DNA from: Escherichia phage vB_EcoM_011D4 | Sequence record: MT478991.1 | Reading direction: 5' to 3' (one strand) | DNA length: 64,000 bases | Shown here: positions 2,537 through 13,365 of the stretch, piece after piece | How the letters are laid out: each line of letters opens with the position of its first letter | Numbering within the stretch: the first letter of the stretch is position 1 | Program-made: the position numbers and the translations under genes | Notes under the pieces: generated by a model | What the model saw: the letters and a program-made list of their open reading frames with translations, nothing else | What the model was told of the DNA's origin: nothing | Database searches by the model: none

Positions 2537-3127
2537 TCAATAGCGTTTAGTCTTAAGAATGCCTTTACTCTTTAGATGGTTAGCCTTTTTTAGTACGTCA
2601 TCAGCATAACCTAATCCGGCTTTATAGTTCCATCCAGCATTGTAAGAAGCTAGCGCGAGTCGGATATTACCGTTTCGAACATCCAGCCAGTATGCTAACT
2701 CATCCATCGCGTAGAATGCAGAAACCTCGCGATTCATGATAAAGTTGATAGTCTGGCGATCACTCATTTTAACACCGCGCTTTGCATTTTTCGCTTTCAC
2801 CGTTTTAAGGTAATTTTGAAATAATCCATAAGCATGATGATTTTTCTTTGGTGCTAAGTTTGCACCCGCGCTTGATTCTTGCCATGCGATACCCGCCAGG
2901 ATGTGGCCTAAACCCTTTCCGTTATAGCGAATATTCGGATGGTACTTTTTCAACTTACCGCTTTTCTCAAATTGCTCGCCGTATTGATAGGCGAAATGTA
3001 AATTATCTAGTTGGTGTGCTGTAAAGTTGTCTATCGGCGCTTTTTTGATCGGTGCGCTAGTCGATGCGTGTGTAGCACCAACGGCTAGTGACAGACTCAA
3101 TACTATCGCTTTTAGAACTTTTAACAT
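2537..3127 (-). CDS. secreted lytic transglycosylase (SLT domain)
   Basis: 196 aa; signal peptide; SLT-type motifs AWQESS ... YGLFQ ... YNAG. Confidence 0.65.
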   Translation of the reverse strand: MLKVLKAIVLSLSLAVGATHASTSAPIKKAPIDNFTAHQLDNLHFAYQYGEQFEKSGKLKKYHPNIRYNGKGLGHILAGIAWQESSAGANLAPKKNHHAYGLFQNYLKTVKAKNAKRGVKMSDRQTINFIMNREVSAFYAMDELAYWLDVRNGNIRLALASYNAGWNYKAGLGYADDVLKKANHLKSKGILKTKRY

Positions 3128-3639: not shown

Positions 3640-3975
3640 TTATCCTTTCTTAAACAAATTGCGAAGCCAGTATACAAACGGGATTTCTTTAAACTTGAAT
3701 TTCTCGATAGTTAATTCTTTAGTAGCAAGATGAATACCATAAGCATCATGTGTCACGATATGCCATTTTCTATAGTCCAAATGTGAACAACCGTCTGGAT
3801 CTAGGTTAATAAGAGTTTCTCGCTCACTAGGATTATTTTTCCACAATTTTGTAATAGGATCGCACATAATTCGACCTAGCGTACCATGAATAATCTCACA
3901 ACGGTAAAGTTTTCCAGCAGTGAGATAGGCGCACCCGTCATAGTCGGTATAAACAAACACTTCTTTAACACTCAT
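3640..3975 (-). CDS. hypothetical protein, member of tandem paralog family (DGCSHL motif)
   Basis: 111 aa; shares (D/G)GCSHL and aromatic-rich motifs with the next two ORFs; own early promoter upstream. Confidence 0.5.
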   Translation of the reverse strand: MSVKEVFVYTDYDGCAYLTAGKLYRCEIIHGTLGRIMCDPITKLWKNNPSERETLINLDPDGCSHLDYRKWHIVTHDAYGIHLATKELTIEKFKFKEIPFVYWLRNLFKKG

Positions 3976-4037: not shown

Positions 4038-4298
4038 CTACTTTTTCAAGATTTTTTTGAGTGCATTCCAAAGACCTTTATTCTCAGGTTGTTTTGGTTC
4101 TTCGATCAGTGTCCACGGACGGTCGTCTAAGTATGCACAGCTTTTCAGAGAAATAAAAAGTTTATATCCTTGATCATCTTTGATGTAACCGTAGGTAGAC
4201 ATTCTTTCATCTGGCGTAAACTTATACAGTTTATTTGGGGTGATGTAAGATCTACTACTATAAGGTGTCATCACATACATCATGGTACTAACTCCCAT
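4038..4298 (-). CDS. hypothetical protein, tandem paralog family
   Basis: 86 aa; motif TPxKLYKFTP ... GYIxDD ... paralogous to 4280..4474. Confidence 0.45.
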   Translation of the reverse strand: MGVSTMMYVMTPYSSRSYITPNKLYKFTPDERMSTYGYIKDDQGYKLFISLKSCAYLDDRPWTLIEEPKQPENKGLWNALKKILKK

Positions 4299-4474
4299 TT
4301 ATCACCGCGAAGATGAGAACATCCACCATCAAGAAGGATCGTAATACGAAACCCCACATCATCTTCAATATACCCGATAGTCGGTGGATGTTCGTCGTCT
4401 CGTGCCGGGGTAAAATCATACATCTTTCCCGGTGTGATATCATTGCCTTTATTGCTATTGGTATAAACTTGCAT
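4280..4474 (-). CDS. hypothetical protein, tandem paralog family
   Basis: 64 aa; motifs TPGKMYDFTP, GYIEDD, GGCSHL shared with neighbours. Confidence 0.45.
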   Translation of the reverse strand: MQVYTNSNKGNDITPGKMYDFTPARDDEHPPTIGYIEDDVGFRITILLDGGCSHLRGDKWELVP

Positions 4475-4495: not shown

Positions 4496-5194
4496 CTAAC
4501 CACGGGTATAGTGTTCCAGAACAACTGTCAGATGAATATATTCTAATAGATCTTTCCAAAAGTCAACATCTGGTTCTTCCGGCATACCGTTTTTCTTTGC
4601 CTCTTCACGCGCGAGTTTAACACGCTCGTAGAGATCTTTCAATTCTTCCCGCACATTATCAAAGGTTCTTTCTCCTAACTTACACGCTAAAATAGAAGAA
4701 CGTCGCGCGAGCGGGAATTGTAGATCACCAGTTTGATAGATTTCAAGTAGCTGATAACCAACACGCAGAGCATGAGAAAGATCTTTCCAGTTACTGAAAT
4801 ACTTTTCAGATTTTGTTACCTGTTTCTTGAGATAACCAGACAAACCCCACATACCAACATGATAGAATTTATCGCGATGTGTTCGGATGTATTCCCATTC
4901 TCTGGAGGATTCAACCAACATGTTACTAGGCGCGTGCACCATGTCAATAGCGCCGATATCGCCTTTACATGCCAGATTGATAAACCGTTTTAGACTGAAC
5001 ATATTAACATCAATATCGTCTTTGGTGTTCTTGATACCTTGACCGCTAGTGCTTTGGTCATAGTGTTCTTTCATCGATCCTAAGATAATTTCTTTAGCAG
5101 TCGGAACAAAGATACCACGATAATCTTTATCTGAATTTTCAGTATCAAGGCCGTACAAGTGAGATCCGAAGACCATTTTAACCATTGTATGCAT
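4496..5194 (-). CDS. predicted nucleotidyltransferase (minimal pol-beta-like fold)
   Basis: 232 aa; N-terminal GSHLYGLDTENSDKDYRGIF matches the GS ... D.D nucleotidyltransferase motif. Confidence 0.5.
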   Translation of the reverse strand: MHTMVKMVFGSHLYGLDTENSDKDYRGIFVPTAKEIILGSMKEHYDQSTSGQGIKNTKDDIDVNMFSLKRFINLACKGDIGAIDMVHAPSNMLVESSREWEYIRTHRDKFYHVGMWGLSGYLKKQVTKSEKYFSNWKDLSHALRVGYQLLEIYQTGDLQFPLARRSSILACKLGERTFDNVREELKDLYERVKLAREEAKKNGMPEEPDVDFWKDLLEYIHLTVVLEHYTRG

Positions 5195-5207
5195 AATTAA
5201 ACCCTCA

Positions 5208-5738
5208 TTAGTATTTTACGTTACGTCGAACGCCTTTTCGAATCTGACAAATAGCAGACGGTGAAACATTATATTTTCTTGCAAGTTCTACACCCTTCAT
5301 ATGGGGAGAAGATAAAATCTCTTCCACTTGGTCGTCGGTAAGTTTTGCGTTTCCGTGGTTCTCTCCCCAATTGTTGTTTAATCCTTCTTCCTTCGCATGA
5401 ACAAGATTTCGGGTATCTGTCGTCCATTCAAGATTATAAAGGTCATAGTTTTGTTTGTTTCCATCCTTATGATTAACTACACGGTAGTTATTTGGATTCG
5501 GAATAAACGCAACCGCCATAGCTTTATGCATGTTCACGGTTTTTCTAAATCCATCCGGCTTATAACATACTGTAAATTTAGAATAACCAGTTTTACCATA
5601 AACACTAATATAATTTCCGGTCTCTGTATTTCTAACCCTACCATGAGAGCTAATCTCAAATTGAGTGTAGGGCAACAGCGCATCAATCACTTTCCATTCT
5701 TCGACAGGATGGTCATCACAATATCTTTTAATCATCAT
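5208..5738 (-). CDS. HNH homing endonuclease (NUMOD4 + HNH + C-terminal HTH)
   Basis: 176 aa; FEISSHGRVRN (NUMOD4-like), NHKDGNKQNYDLYNLEW (HNH), C-terminal ARKYNVSPSAICQIRKG HTH. Confidence 0.8.
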   Translation of the reverse strand: MMIKRYCDDHPVEEWKVIDALLPYTQFEISSHGRVRNTETGNYISVYGKTGYSKFTVCYKPDGFRKTVNMHKAMAVAFIPNPNNYRVVNHKDGNKQNYDLYNLEWTTDTRNLVHAKEEGLNNNWGENHGNAKLTDDQVEEILSSPHMKGVELARKYNVSPSAICQIRKGVRRNVKY

Positions 5739-5754
5739 ATCACCTCATAAAAAT

Positions 5755-5785
5755 AAAGCCAACCCTTTCGGATTGGCTTAAAAAA
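5755..5785 (-). terminator. hairpin terminator downstream of GrcA-like gene
   Basis: inverted repeat aagccaa / ttggctt followed on the minus strand by a U-run. Confidence 0.45.
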
Positions 5786-6202
5786 TTACATTGCTTCCGT
5801 AAAGGTGCGCGAAATAACGTCACGTTGTTGGTCTGGAGTCAGACTATTGAATCTTACGGCATATCCGCTAACGCGAATGGTTAGTTGCGGATACTTATCA
5901 GGATTAGCAACCGCATCAAGAAGAAGATCGCGACTCATCACATTGATATTCGCGTGCTGACCACCTTCGACAACCGGAGCACCATTATCTACAATGACAG
6001 GACGGAAGCTAGTTGTGTGTAGTGCCAGCGAATCGACGTCTTCTGCGGTGATCACATGGTCTTCTGCGAAAGTTTTACTAACAATTACTTTAGCGCCGAT
6101 CAGTGCTTTCGGTTCGGATACCAGAATCATAGGCGCGAAGTGTCCACCAATAATAGTACCTTTATGCTCACCTTTCATGATTTGAATTGCTTTAAATTCC
6201 AT
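5786..6202 (-). CDS. autonomous glycyl radical cofactor (GrcA/YfiD-like)
   Basis: 138 aa; C-terminus [32 protein letters not shown] carries the glycyl-radical signature RVSGYA and closely resembles E. coli GrcA as recalled. Confidence 0.8.
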
Positions 6203-6885: not shown

Positions 6886-7275
6886 TTATTTTGGATCTTG
6901 GTATTTGCTGTGTGGTAATTGTAGATGAGGACCATCTTTAAAACTAGTCCAATCCCCACCCCATTCAACAGGAACACCCAATTCTCGGCCAGCTTGTTTA
7001 AATGCATCAGCGATCATGCGGTAATATTTCATATTCCATGTATCCTTATCTTTCGGATACGCTACAACGTCAACCGCGAAACCGTGAAGATGACGAGATT
7101 TCATAGTCTTAGATTTACCTTCCGCAACATATTTCTTTTGCGTTGCGAGACTACGCACACCTTCTGTAATACCAAAATCGACCGGAGTCAGTTCTAACGC
7201 ACGATGAACGACTTTTACCAGGTCAGGATGCACACCAACAAGCCGATCTTTGCTTCTTTGAGATAATTTAAACAT
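6886..7275 (-). CDS. endolysin, peptidase M15 (VanY/L-Ala-D-Glu peptidase-like)
   Basis: 129 aa; zinc-ligand motifs SRHLHGFAVD and WGGDW ... DGPHLQL typical of M15 peptidoglycan peptidases; sits at the T4 e position. Confidence 0.75.
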   Translation of the reverse strand: MFKLSQRSKDRLVGVHPDLVKVVHRALELTPVDFGITEGVRSLATQKKYVAEGKSKTMKSRHLHGFAVDVVAYPKDKDTWNMKYYRMIADAFKQAGRELGVPVEWGGDWTSFKDGPHLQLPHSKYQDPK

Positions 7276-12894: not shown

Positions 12895-13365
12895 TTACAG
12901 TTTGGTCGTCCACTCCAGGTCTAGATCTTCGACATACTCATGAGATCGGACAATCTCTAAATCGAACTCTAGGTCAGTGCCAAATTTACGCGCACCAACA
13001 TCATAAGAAAGCGTGATATGCGGTACATATTCAGGATAATCCCACGTCGCACCTAAAGCAGTGCCGATATCGTGTCTGAATTGCATGTAGTCGCTTTCAA
13101 ATGCCAACACAAGCGCATTAGTACCGGATTGAGTTTCAAACACTTTCAGATGGCATAGAGAGCCTAAGAACTTCTCCCCTTCTTCTGGGATAAACGGAAC
13201 ATAGACACGAGAATATAAGATAGTGCTATGCAGTTTATCACGAGGAACAGCATTAGGCAGATCGTAGAACTCCTGCAATTTTTCAATGCGGTCTAGTGTA
13301 TCCTCAGTGAATTTAACCGCCGCATATGTACCTTTAACGGATTCTCGAAACGGGGTCATAATCAA
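12895..13365 (-). CDS. 2H phosphoesterase family protein (LigT-like; T4 57B position)
   Basis: 156 aa; two H-x-T/S-x motifs (HSTI and HITL) with spacing typical of 2H phosphoesterases. Confidence 0.5.
   Translation of the reverse strand: MIMTPFRESVKGTYAAVKFTEDTLDRIEKLQEFYDLPNAVPRDKLHSTILYSRVYVPFIPEEGEKFLGSLCHLKVFETQSGTNALVLAFESDYMQFRHDIGTALGATWDYPEYVPHITLSYDVGARKFGTDLEFDLEIVRSHEYVEDLDLEWTTKL

What the first reader, a model, noticed from the sequence alone, without database searches (positions are those of the whole stretch)
4496..5194. Minimal nucleotidyltransferase in the early region
The GS ... D.D motif (GSHLYGLDTENSDKDYRGIF) marks a pol-beta-superfamily nucleotidyltransferase of about 230 aa. 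Such enzymes modify nucleotides, RNA ends or proteins and occur in toxin-antitoxin and signalling contexts. Its substrate here is unknown and it is not a T4 gene.
Basis: partly seen in the sequence, partly recalled or inferred. Interest (0 to 1): 0.5.

Follow-up and report, generated by a model that had tools for sequence, protein, structure and literature searches.

The report
Phage copy of T4 nrdC.11 nucleotidyltransferase

Summary
The ORF is real: window 4496..5194, minus strand, 232 aa. Its GS(10-11)…D22xD24 motif sits in a confidently predicted nucleotidyltransferase fold (pLDDT 91). It matches Pfam PF10127 (RlaP) at 54 bits against a cut-off of 23, and PHROG 388 at 5e-79.

The window is a Krischvirus (RB49/JSE/Whisky-like). 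In RefSeq this gene is already labelled "nrdC.11 nucleotidyltransferase".

It is a short form. T4-type proteins (336 aa) carry a ~105-residue alpha/beta insert that is absent here. Only 6 of 267 relatives lack it, in at least three lineages. The short form matches the Pfam profile without a break.

The gene is under strong purifying selection (dN/dS 0.02-0.07), and all conserved acidic residues are present.

A 2025 preprint showed that Pseudomonas RlaP enzymes add 1-2 NMP to RNA 3'-OH ends and prefer cleaved-tRNA mimics. By inference, this enzyme restores nucleotides lost from nuclease-damaged host tRNA before PseT and RnlA reseal it. Both genes are present in all 58 Krischvirus genomes, though not adjacent to nrdC.11.

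No phage member has been assayed. Verdict: known gene, known family, low interest.

The parts
4496..5194 (-). Coding sequence of the NrdC.11 orthologue (RlaP-family nucleotidyltransferase), 232 aa plus stop
   Evidence: ORF list. Pfam PF10127 54.3 bits. PHROG 388 5e-79. Annotated nrdC.11 in JSE NC_012740. dN/dS 0.02-0.07 within the genus.
4859..5194 (-). N-terminal nucleotidyltransferase (Pol-beta type) alpha/beta domain, residues 1-112
5162..5167 (-). G10-S11 of the hG[GS] nucleotide-binding motif
   Evidence: Translation check. G10 conserved in 267/267 and S11 in 264/267 relatives.
5123..5131 (-). D22-K-D24, the two metal-binding carboxylates (DxD)
   Evidence: Translation check. D22 in 266/267 and D24 in 265/267. 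At the start of strand 24-30 in the model.
5009..5017 (-). D60-I-D62, candidate third catalytic carboxylate(s) at the start of strand 62-67
   Evidence: D60 in 262/267 and D62 in 264/267 (the other 3 are E). Invariant also against a canonical RlaP and the Bacillaceae group. Which of the two is the third catalytic Asp is inferred, not shown.
4943..4945 (-). D84, a further conserved acidic residue (AIDMVH)
   Evidence: D in 255 and E in 9 of 267. E in the canonical RlaP and the Bacillaceae group.
4787..4813 (-). Junction K128-SEKYFSN-W136, where T4-type proteins carry a ~105-aa alpha/beta insert
   Evidence: Alignments A1 and BLASTP. The T4-type model shows the insert as helix-strands-helix, residues ~131-240. 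Insert length is 80-130 in 261 of 267 relatives and under 20 in 6.
4499..4849 (-). C-terminal all-helical domain (residues 116-232) with the conserved K137, H141, R144 and K172
5202..5206 (-). Shine-Dalgarno GAGGG for the gene, in the 13-nt gap after the homing endonuclease stop codon
   Evidence: Sequence read directly.

Best explanation
The gene encodes a short-form NrdC.11, a phage member of the RlaP (PF10127) branch of Pol-beta nucleotidyltransferases. The proposed mechanism has three steps. (1) The N-terminal domain binds NTP and two divalent ions (Mn2+ in the characterised relatives) through D22, D24 and D60/D62. [quoted passage not shown] (3) The enzyme transfers one or two NMPs to the RNA 3'-OH without a template. 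The proposed biological role is to replace nucleotides trimmed from host tRNA by anticodon nucleases of the RloC type. This would occur after phage PseT (Pnkp) has converted the 2',3'-cyclic phosphate end to 3'-OH and before phage RNA ligase 1 (RnlA) reseals the loop. Shown here: family membership, intact catalytic residues, fold, purifying selection, and co-occurrence with pseT and rnlA. Taken from the literature on bacterial relatives: RNA 3'-OH as acceptor, addition of 1-2 nt, and Mn2+ preference. Inferred: that this phage enzyme does the same, and that its target is damaged tRNA.
For: Family: only PF10127 matched among Pfam families, at 54.3 bits against a cut-off of 23, aligned without a break over profile positions 24-198; PHROG 388 at 5e-79. 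Catalytic residues are conserved at 96-100% in 267 relatives and all are present here. Fold: nucleotidyltransferase domain plus helical domain, pLDDT 91, the same two-domain description given for the PfRlaP crystal structure (PMC12776372); TM 0.7-0.83 to many phage nucleotidyltransferase models. Functional gene: dN/dS 0.016-0.068 among Krischvirus copies and <=0.19 to a 57%-identical relative with the same synteny. Biochemistry of the family: PfRlaP and PaRlaP label only RNA, need a 3'-OH, add 1-2 NMP, prefer the 5' half of a cleaved-tRNA mimic, and partly restore aminoacylation of a tRNA that lacks one nucleotide. T4 NrdC.11 is placed in the same family network, cluster 5. Partners: pseT and rnlA are present in all 58 Krischvirus records that carry this locus, and RnlA needs exactly the 3'-OH end that RlaP produces. 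RNA-repair neighbours of relatives: in Campylobacterota a CCA-adding/poly(A)-polymerase-type gene is directly adjacent in 7 loci (an eighth match is ~4.7 kb away) and RtcB is adjacent in 3. Ro60/TROVE lies directly upstream in L008, a second canonical RlaP follows in L009, and a metallophosphoesterase lies upstream in L017 and L061. RNA ligase and a Ro-like protein lie within 7 kb in Gordonia phage Rabbitrun. In jumbo phages RlaP distribution mirrors that of RNA ligases (PMC7824862).
Against: No phage RlaP, including T4 NrdC.11, has been assayed; the preprint calls the T4 protein 'of unknown function'. This clade is only about 17% identical to a canonical RlaP. In this genome the gene is not linked to pseT/rnlA (about 77 kb apart in JSE), and neither lies in the window. 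Many cellular and phage relatives have no RNA-repair neighbours. T4 nrdC.11 is dispensable in the laboratory, which is compatible with a conditional role but gives no positive support. The best solved structural neighbour is HalB, a DNA-oligomer synthase, not an RNA enzyme. The PfRlaP structure is not in the PDB copy, so no direct superposition was possible. The preprint itself is not peer reviewed and its in vivo model is untested.
Confidence: 0.6

Rival explanations
1. tRNA acceptor-end or other RNA 3'-end repair rather than anticodon-loop repair. The enzyme would restore nucleotides nibbled from 3' termini (for example the CCA end) of host tRNAs or other stable RNAs attacked during infection, independently of the ligase.
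For: The chemistry is the same as the family's demonstrated activity (addition to any RNA 3'-OH, little NTP specificity). The most frequent neighbour of long-form relatives in Campylobacterota is a CCA-adding-type enzyme with an HD domain. The gene is unlinked to rnlA in this genome. The phage encodes no tRNAs of its own, so it depends entirely on host tRNA.
Against: RlaP showed little nucleotide specificity, which fits CCA restoration poorly. On a cleaved-tRNA mimic it preferred the broken anticodon-loop end over the acceptor-side 3' end. The host already has a CCA-adding enzyme (established knowledge).
Confidence: 0.12
2. RNA tailing for decay or shut-off. The enzyme would add short 3' tails to host or early phage mRNA fragments, such as those made by the nearby RegB endoribonuclease, to change their stability.
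For: In Krischvirus the gene lies four genes upstream of regB on the same strand. The family accepts generic single-stranded RNA 3'-OH ends.
Against: The regB proximity is not conserved: in T4 nrdC.11 lies between nrdC.10 and mobD. Only 1-2 nt are added by the assayed relatives. RNA-repair genes, not RNases, are the recurrent neighbours.
Confidence: 0.08
3. HalB-like template-independent synthesis of (deoxy)oligonucleotides, possibly protein-primed. The products would serve as a decoy or signal, for example to keep an oligo-dA-gated Hailong channel closed.
Against: Only 12% identity and no sequence-level match to HalB, even with a profile. TM-scores of 0.4-0.5 show a shared superfamily fold only. 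No HalA-like partner is adjacent. The sequence family is PF10127, whose assayed members do not extend DNA and stop after 2 nt. The position of the HalB priming tyrosine could not be compared.
Confidence: 0.05
4. Nucleotidylation of a small molecule or a protein, as in aminoglycoside nucleotidyltransferases or MNT antitoxins that AMPylate HEPN toxins.
For: Fold similarity to ANT(4')/kanamycin nucleotidyltransferase, LinB and AadA, and of the C-terminal bundle to HEPN domains.
Against: No Pfam match to those families at E<=10. PADLOC gave only noise, E 0.02. No HEPN toxin gene lies nearby. PfRlaP and PaRlaP did not label E. coli proteins.
Confidence: 0.04
5. A decaying remnant: the loss of about 105 residues relative to T4 has inactivated the gene.
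For: It is about 30% shorter than nearly all close relatives.
Against: dN/dS is 0.02-0.07. All catalytic and conserved basic residues are kept. The model is confident and compact. The short form equals the canonical Pfam architecture. The same short form persists at 57% identity in a distant relative.
Confidence: 0.01

Closest known systems
Bacteriophage T4 NrdC.11 (NP_049709.1) and its Tequatrovirus orthologues (e.g. RB14)
   Same: Same gene family and gene name in public annotation. BLASTP E 4e-52, about 48% identity over the shared core, and identical motif set (GSHLYG, SDxD, KNTKDDID, IDM.H, WK.LSHA.R). An HNH homing endonuclease gene lies on its 5' side in both.
   Different: T4-type is 336 aa, with a ~105-aa alpha/beta insert between the two domains that is absent here. 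The map position differs: regB/vs.6 here, nrdC.10/mobD in T4. The flanking endonucleases are unrelated in sequence. Neither protein has been assayed.
RlaP (PF10127) of Pseudomonas fluorescens and P. aeruginosa (Carruthers, Fatma and Huang, bioRxiv 2025; PMC12776372)
   Same: Same Pfam family, above its gathering score. Same two-domain layout of nucleotidyltransferase plus helical domain with conserved aspartates. Similar length, with no insert (a canonical RlaP in L009 is 254 aa).
   Different: Only about 17% identity to a canonical RlaP. The preprint puts T4 NrdC.11 in a different network cluster (5 rather than 1a). The Pseudomonas genes sit inside rtcB-rtcA operons, whereas this gene is unlinked to any ligase. 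The activity (1-2 NMP onto RNA 3'-OH, Mn2+) is shown for them and only inferred here.
Hailong HalB (PDB 9dbh, 9dbj)
   Different: 12% identity and not detectable by sequence. HalB is a tyrosine-primed poly-dA synthase paired with the HalA channel in a host defence system. There is no such partner here and the setting is a phage.
Kanamycin nucleotidyltransferase ANT(4') and related antibiotic nucleotidyltransferases (1kny, 6un8, LinB, AadA)
   Different: TM-score only about 0.4, no sequence-family match, and small-molecule acceptors.
Class II CCA-adding enzyme / poly(A) polymerase
   Same: Template-independent addition of nucleotides to RNA 3'-OH by a Pol-beta fold. Genes of this type lie next to relatives of this protein in Campylobacterota.
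   Different: Much larger, with head, neck and body domains and strict nucleotide selection. Only weak fold matches (rank 48).

Membership tests
RlaP / Pfam PF10127 | Sequence match to the family profile above its curated gathering score | tested here: met
   54.3 bits against a cut-off of 23, E 2e-14, one contiguous stretch (residues 7-191 on profile positions 24-198 of 249). No other Pfam family matched at E<=10.
RlaP / Pfam PF10127 | Pol-beta catalytic signature: hG[GS], DxD and a third conserved Asp | tested here: met
   G10-S11, D22-x-D24 and D60/D62 are present, conserved at 98-100% in 267 relatives, and invariant against a canonical RlaP.
RlaP / Pfam PF10127 | N-terminal nucleotidyltransferase domain plus C-terminal helical domain, as in the PfRlaP crystal structure | tested here: met
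   The AF2 model at pLDDT 91 shows exactly this layout. The description of PfRlaP is in PMC12776372. A direct superposition was not possible because PfRlaP is not in the PDB copy.
RlaP / Pfam PF10127 | Gene neighbourhood with an RNA ligase (typical of some members and the source of the name; not required by the Pfam definition) | tested here: inconclusive
   No ligase lies within the window. JSE rnlA and pseT lie about 77 kb away but co-occur in 58 of 58 Krischvirus genomes. The gene labelled 'RNA ligase' (57B) in JSE is Acb1.
RlaP / Pfam PF10127 | Adds 1-2 NMP to an RNA 3'-OH, with Mn2+ preferred | not testable with these tools
   Shown only for PfRlaP and PaRlaP.
T4 NrdC.11 orthologue group | Closest T4 protein is NrdC.11, with high-significance full-core alignment | tested here: met
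   E 4e-52 to NP_049709.1. Named nrdC.11 in the JSE and RB49 records.
T4 NrdC.11 orthologue group | T4-type architecture with the ~105-aa insert (about 300-345 aa in total) | tested here: not met
   The insert is absent. Only 6 of 267 relatives lack it.
T4 NrdC.11 orthologue group | Conserved map position between nrdC.10 and mobD | tested here: not met
   Here and in JSE the gene lies between regB plus three small ORFs and a homing endonuclease plus vs.6.
Hailong HalB | Sequence relationship to HalB and an adjacent HalA transmembrane effector | tested here: not met
   No sequence hit to HalB with a single sequence or a profile. 12% identity in the structural alignment. The neighbours are a homing endonuclease and ORFs of 64-111 aa.
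MNT-HEPN toxin-antitoxin or other defence nucleotidyltransferases | Match to defence-system profiles and a partner toxin gene | tested here: not met
   PADLOC best E 0.019, which is not significant. No HEPN or toxin family was found in the neighbours scanned.
Aminoglycoside nucleotidyltransferases (ANT) | Match to ANT sequence families | tested here: not met
   No Pfam match. Only superfamily-level fold similarity, TM about 0.4.

The most novel reading that the evidence does not exclude
The NrdC.11 clade may not be an RNA-repair enzyme at all. It is only about 17% identical to the assayed RlaPs, its nearest solved structure is the poly-dA synthase HalB, and it is unlinked to the ligase in T4-like phages. 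It could instead be a phage counter-defence enzyme that makes short untemplated (deoxy)oligonucleotides, or nucleotidylates a host factor, for example to supply a decoy ligand that keeps an oligonucleotide-gated defence channel such as Hailong HalA shut. On this reading the short Krischvirus form would be the minimal catalytic core.
Probability: 0.05. Interest if true: 0.75.

Novelty: already known. Interest (0 to 1): 0.2.

Why it matters
The finding changes little. The gene, its name and its nucleotidyltransferase assignment have been public since the RB49 and JSE genome papers (COG3541 assignment in 2006, PMC1524935). The family was named RlaP in 2016 and characterised biochemically in 2025.

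The residual value is practical. T4's PseT/RnlA pathway is the founding example of RNA repair. How phages cope with nucleases such as RloC, which also remove a nucleotide, is still untested. NrdC.11 is the obvious candidate.

The Krischvirus protein is a naturally minimal version (232 aa) under strong purifying selection. It has no insert domain and its predicted model is compact and confident. This makes it a convenient construct for testing that idea biochemically and genetically. It would also help to find out what the T4-type insert adds.

Tried and rejected
- **Solved-structure search by sequence.** I tried the single protein, a 34-sequence profile and a canonical RlaP, and found only noise. 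The PfRlaP crystal structure is therefore not in the PDB copy, and no direct comparison was possible.
- **NCBIfam.** No match.
- **PADLOC.** Only insignificant matches, so the defence-system or toxin-antitoxin reading was dropped.
- **AFDB fold search.** The library was unavailable.
- **Burroughs and Aravind 2016.** The paper that named RlaP is not held in the library. Its content is cited only through PMC12776372 and PMC7824862.
- **Original Hailong paper.** Not held, so the position of the HalB priming tyrosine could not be compared with Y14.
- **RNA ligase inside the window.** The JSE gene 57B is labelled 'RNA ligase' but is Acb1, the anti-CBASS phosphodiesterase. pseT and rnlA give no tblastn hit in the window.
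- **Phage tRNA genes as a possible substrate.** None were found in the window or in JSE positions 1-49,000 and 62,000-161,800.
- **Mycobacteriophage Faith1 neighbourhood.** No RNA-repair genes near its nucleotidyltransferase.
- **Pseudogene or remnant reading.** Rejected by dN/dS.
- **Window endonuclease as a homologue of T4 mobD.** Rejected: no similarity.

Full report
**1. What is at the coordinates**

Window 4496..5194 holds one uninterrupted ORF on the minus strand, ATG at 5194 and TAA at 4496-4498, 232 aa. A GAGGG ribosome-binding site lies at 5206..5202, in the 13-nt gap after the stop codon of the upstream gene. All neighbouring genes are on the same strand.

**2. Which genome, and what the gene is called**

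The 5-kb surroundings are 96-97% identical to Krischvirus phages: Whisky, JSE, RB49 and 55 more records. In the JSE RefSeq record the gene is annotated 'nrdC.11, nucleotidyltransferase'.

T4 itself has nrdC.11 (NP_049709.1, 336 aa, annotated nucleotidyltransferase). It aligns with the window protein at E 4e-52, with 106 identical residues over the shared core. A 2006 comparison of T4-like genomes that included RB49 already assigned nrdC.11 orthologues to the COG3541 nucleotidyltransferase domain (PMC1524935).

The statement 'it is not a T4 gene' is therefore wrong. What differs is the map position and the length. In Krischvirus the gene lies between regB plus three small ORFs on one side and a homing endonuclease plus vs.6 on the other. 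In T4 it lies between nrdC.10 and mobD.

**3. Family**

Against Pfam the only match at E<=10 is PF10127 'RlaP, RNA repair pathway DNA polymerase beta family'. It scores 54.3 bits against a gathering cut-off of 23, and residues 7-191 align without a break to profile positions 24-198. PHROG 388 (nucleotidyltransferase) matches at 4.8e-79. NCBIfam has nothing, and PADLOC shows only noise at E 0.02. An exhaustive HMMER scan of 1.84 billion representative proteins found 3565 relatives at E<=1e-3.

**4.

Conservation was measured on an alignment of 267 relatives:

| Residue | Conservation |
|---|---|
| G10 | 100% |
| S11 | 99% |
| D22 | 100% |
| D24 | 99% |
| D60 | 98% |
| D62 | 99% (the rest E) |
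| D84 | 96% (plus 3% E) |
| K137, H141, R144, K172 | at least 99% each |

The window protein has every one of these. G10, S11, D22, D60, D62 and K137 are also invariant when a canonical RlaP (L009, full-length PF10127 match at 5.9e-81) and a Bacillaceae group are added.

An AlphaFold2 model built from a 34-sequence alignment is confident (pLDDT 91.4, pTM 0.88). It shows two parts:
- an N-terminal alpha/beta nucleotidyltransferase domain, with GS after strand 1, DxD at the start of strand 2 and D60/D62 at the start of the strand at 62-67;
- a C-terminal helical domain, residues 116-230.

This matches the published description of the PfRlaP crystal structure: a nucleotidyltransferase domain, a helical domain, and a last helix packing back on the first domain.

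No solved structure is detectable by sequence. The PfRlaP coordinates are therefore not yet in the PDB copy, and a direct superposition was impossible.

**5. The one unusual feature: a short form**

T4-type proteins are about 300-345 aa. The window protein lacks about 105 residues between K128 and W136.

A model of a T4-type protein (P0016, pLDDT 87) shows that this segment, residues ~131-240, is a separate module. It consists of a helix, two short strands, a helix, a three-stranded sheet and a long helix.

Of 267 relatives, 261 carry an insert of 60-130 residues and only 6 have fewer than 20. The short forms fall in at least three lineages:
- the Krischvirus-like pair (window protein/P0001 and P0002);
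- P0153, whose closest relatives are long forms at 56% identity;
- P0142 and P0238.

Their junctions differ, and some still keep the 'KYG.KG' start of the insert. The insert has therefore been lost repeatedly.

The short form equals the canonical Pfam architecture. It has a contiguous profile match, whereas the T4-type match stops at profile position 142, and the canonical RlaP of L009 is 254 aa. 'Minimal' is thus true relative to T4, but ordinary relative to the family.

**6. Is it functional?**

| Comparison | Differences | dN/dS |
|---|---|---|
| window vs JSE | 16 nucleotides, 1 amino acid | 0.016 |
| window vs phiS | — | 0.068 |
| vs the 57%-identical short form on metagenomic contig L069 (synonymous sites saturated) | — | <=0.19 |

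Contig L069 has the same gene order: M15 endolysin, vs.8, vs.6, HNH endonuclease, RlaP. This is strong purifying selection and rules out a decaying remnant.

**7. What the family does**

[quoted passage not shown] I cite this through PMC12776372 and PMC7824862.

Carruthers, Fatma and Huang (bioRxiv, December 2025) studied two Pseudomonas RlaPs and reported the following:
- they label RNA but not DNA or protein;
- they require a 3'-OH;
- they add one or two NMPs with little base specificity, and also accept dATP;
- they prefer Mn2+;
- they favour the broken anticodon-loop end of a cleaved-tRNA mimic;
- they partly restore aminoacylation of a tRNA lacking one nucleotide.

The authors place T4 NrdC.11 in the family network (cluster 5) but call it 'of unknown function'. 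T4 nrdC.11 can be deleted in the laboratory (PMC9825161).

**8. Context evidence gathered here**

JSE encodes PseT (polynucleotide kinase/phosphatase) and RnlA (RNA ligase 1) about 77 kb from nrdC.11. The pseT-rnlA segment is present at 95% identity or more in 58 phage records, the same number as carry the nrdC.11 locus. Neither gene lies in the window.

The phage has no tRNA genes, so any tRNA substrate would be host tRNA.

Among 62 cellular loci encoding relatives, contexts are mixed. The recurrent neighbours, however, are RNA-end enzymes:
- a CCA-adding/poly(A)-polymerase-type protein with an HD domain in 8 Campylobacterota loci, directly adjacent in 7, and RtcB adjacent in 3;
- Ro60/TROVE directly upstream in L008;
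- a second, canonical RlaP directly downstream in L009;
- a metallophosphoesterase upstream in L017 and L061.

In Gordonia phage Rabbitrun an RNA ligase, the nucleotidyltransferase and a Ro-like protein lie within 7 kb. In mycobacteriophage Faith1 there are no such neighbours.

**9. Most likely mechanism**

- **Shown:** an intact RlaP-family nucleotidyltransferase under selection, in a phage lineage that always also carries the Pnkp/Rnl1 tRNA-repair pair.
- **Inferred from the assayed relatives:** it uses two metal ions held by D22, D24 and D60/D62 to transfer one or two NMPs from NTP to an RNA 3'-OH bound in the cleft lined by K137, H141, R144 and K172.
- **Inferred biology:** a host anticodon nuclease cuts a tRNA and also removes a nucleotide (RloC type). 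PseT then heals the ends. This enzyme adds a nucleotide back, and RnlA seals the loop, because RnlA needs the 3'-OH that RlaP leaves.

I put about 0.95 on family membership, about 0.65 on RNA 3'-end addition as the chemistry, and about 0.45 on the specific tRNA-repair role. The overall figure is 0.6.

**10. Rivals**

- Repair of acceptor or other RNA 3' ends without the ligase: 0.12.
- Short tailing of mRNA fragments linked to RegB: 0.08.
- HalB-like oligonucleotide synthesis as a decoy: 0.05.
- Nucleotidylation of small molecules or proteins: 0.04.
- Inactive remnant: 0.01.

Evidence for and against each is listed in the structured fields.

**11. Verdict**

The 'not a T4 gene' claim is wrong, and 'substrate unknown' has been overtaken by the literature at the family level.

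The gene is publicly annotated and belongs to a named family that has recently been characterised. The only modest addition here is that the Krischvirus protein is one of a few independently derived insert-less forms. Interest is low (0.2). The remaining value is as a compact construct for the still-missing functional test of phage RlaP.

Noticed in passing
window 5208..5738 (-): A free-standing HNH homing endonuclease gene (weak HNH_3 and NUMOD4 matches) lies directly upstream of nrdC.11. At the protein level only 3 phage records hold it at >=99% identity (Whisky and the two JSE records) and 3 more at 60-80%. RB49-type genomes lack it (about 90% coverage of the 5-kb query). T4 has a different, unrelated HNH endonuclease (mobD, target unknown) at the same flank of nrdC.11. 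The 5' side of this gene therefore seems to be a recurrent homing site.
   Followed up: partly
window 5756..5779 (-) and 5734..5762 (-): A terminator-like hairpin (10 bp stem, 5 GC pairs, T-rich tail) lies between vs.6 and the homing endonuclease, overlapped by a promoter-like site. It may insulate or regulate the endonuclease, as described for other T4 free-standing endonucleases.
   Followed up: no
window 5786..6202 (-): vs.6 carries a C-terminal glycyl-radical domain (PF01228, 4.7e-15) with the RVSGYAV motif. It is a GrcA/YfiD-like spare part for oxygen-damaged pyruvate formate-lyase.
   Followed up: partly
window 3640..3975, 4038..4298, 4280..4474 (-): Three tandem small ORFs (111, 86 and 64 aa) just downstream of nrdC.11 are paralogues of one another (BLASTP 3e-13 and about 1e-4). 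They share a GK(L/M)Y...G.I.DD...C(S/A)(H/Y)L pattern and have no Pfam match.
   Followed up: partly
window 12895..13365 (-): The gene that JSE RefSeq and PHROG 755 label 'RNA ligase' (T4 57B) is Acb1, the anti-CBASS cyclic-nucleotide phosphodiesterase (PF23474, 1.5e-51). The 'RNA ligase' label is a legacy of its 2H/LigT-like fold.
   Followed up: yes
L070 8439..9446 (T4 NC_000866 nrdC.11): The T4 reference protein has N at the position of D60, which is conserved in 98% of 267 relatives and is D in RB14. It also contains an ambiguous codon (X101). This could be old sequencing error or a laboratory-strain variant of a near-catalytic residue.
   Followed up: no
L045 4559..8600; also L040 and L055: In Sulfurovum/Campylobacteraceae genomes a long-form NrdC.11-like RlaP sits between a CCA-adding-type nucleotidyltransferase with an HD domain and RtcB. 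This looks like a compact three-gene RNA-end repair cassette.
   Followed up: partly
L009 6001..7727: A deltaproteobacterial MAG carries a long-form NrdC.11-like gene immediately followed by a canonical 254-aa RlaP (PF10127, 5.9e-81). Two divergent family members therefore sit in tandem.
   Followed up: no
window 2537..3127 (-) and 6886..7275 (-): vs.1 has an SLT lytic-transglycosylase domain and a signal-peptide-like N-terminus. The phage endolysin here is an M15-type L-alanyl-D-glutamate peptidase rather than a T4 e-type lysozyme.
   Followed up: no
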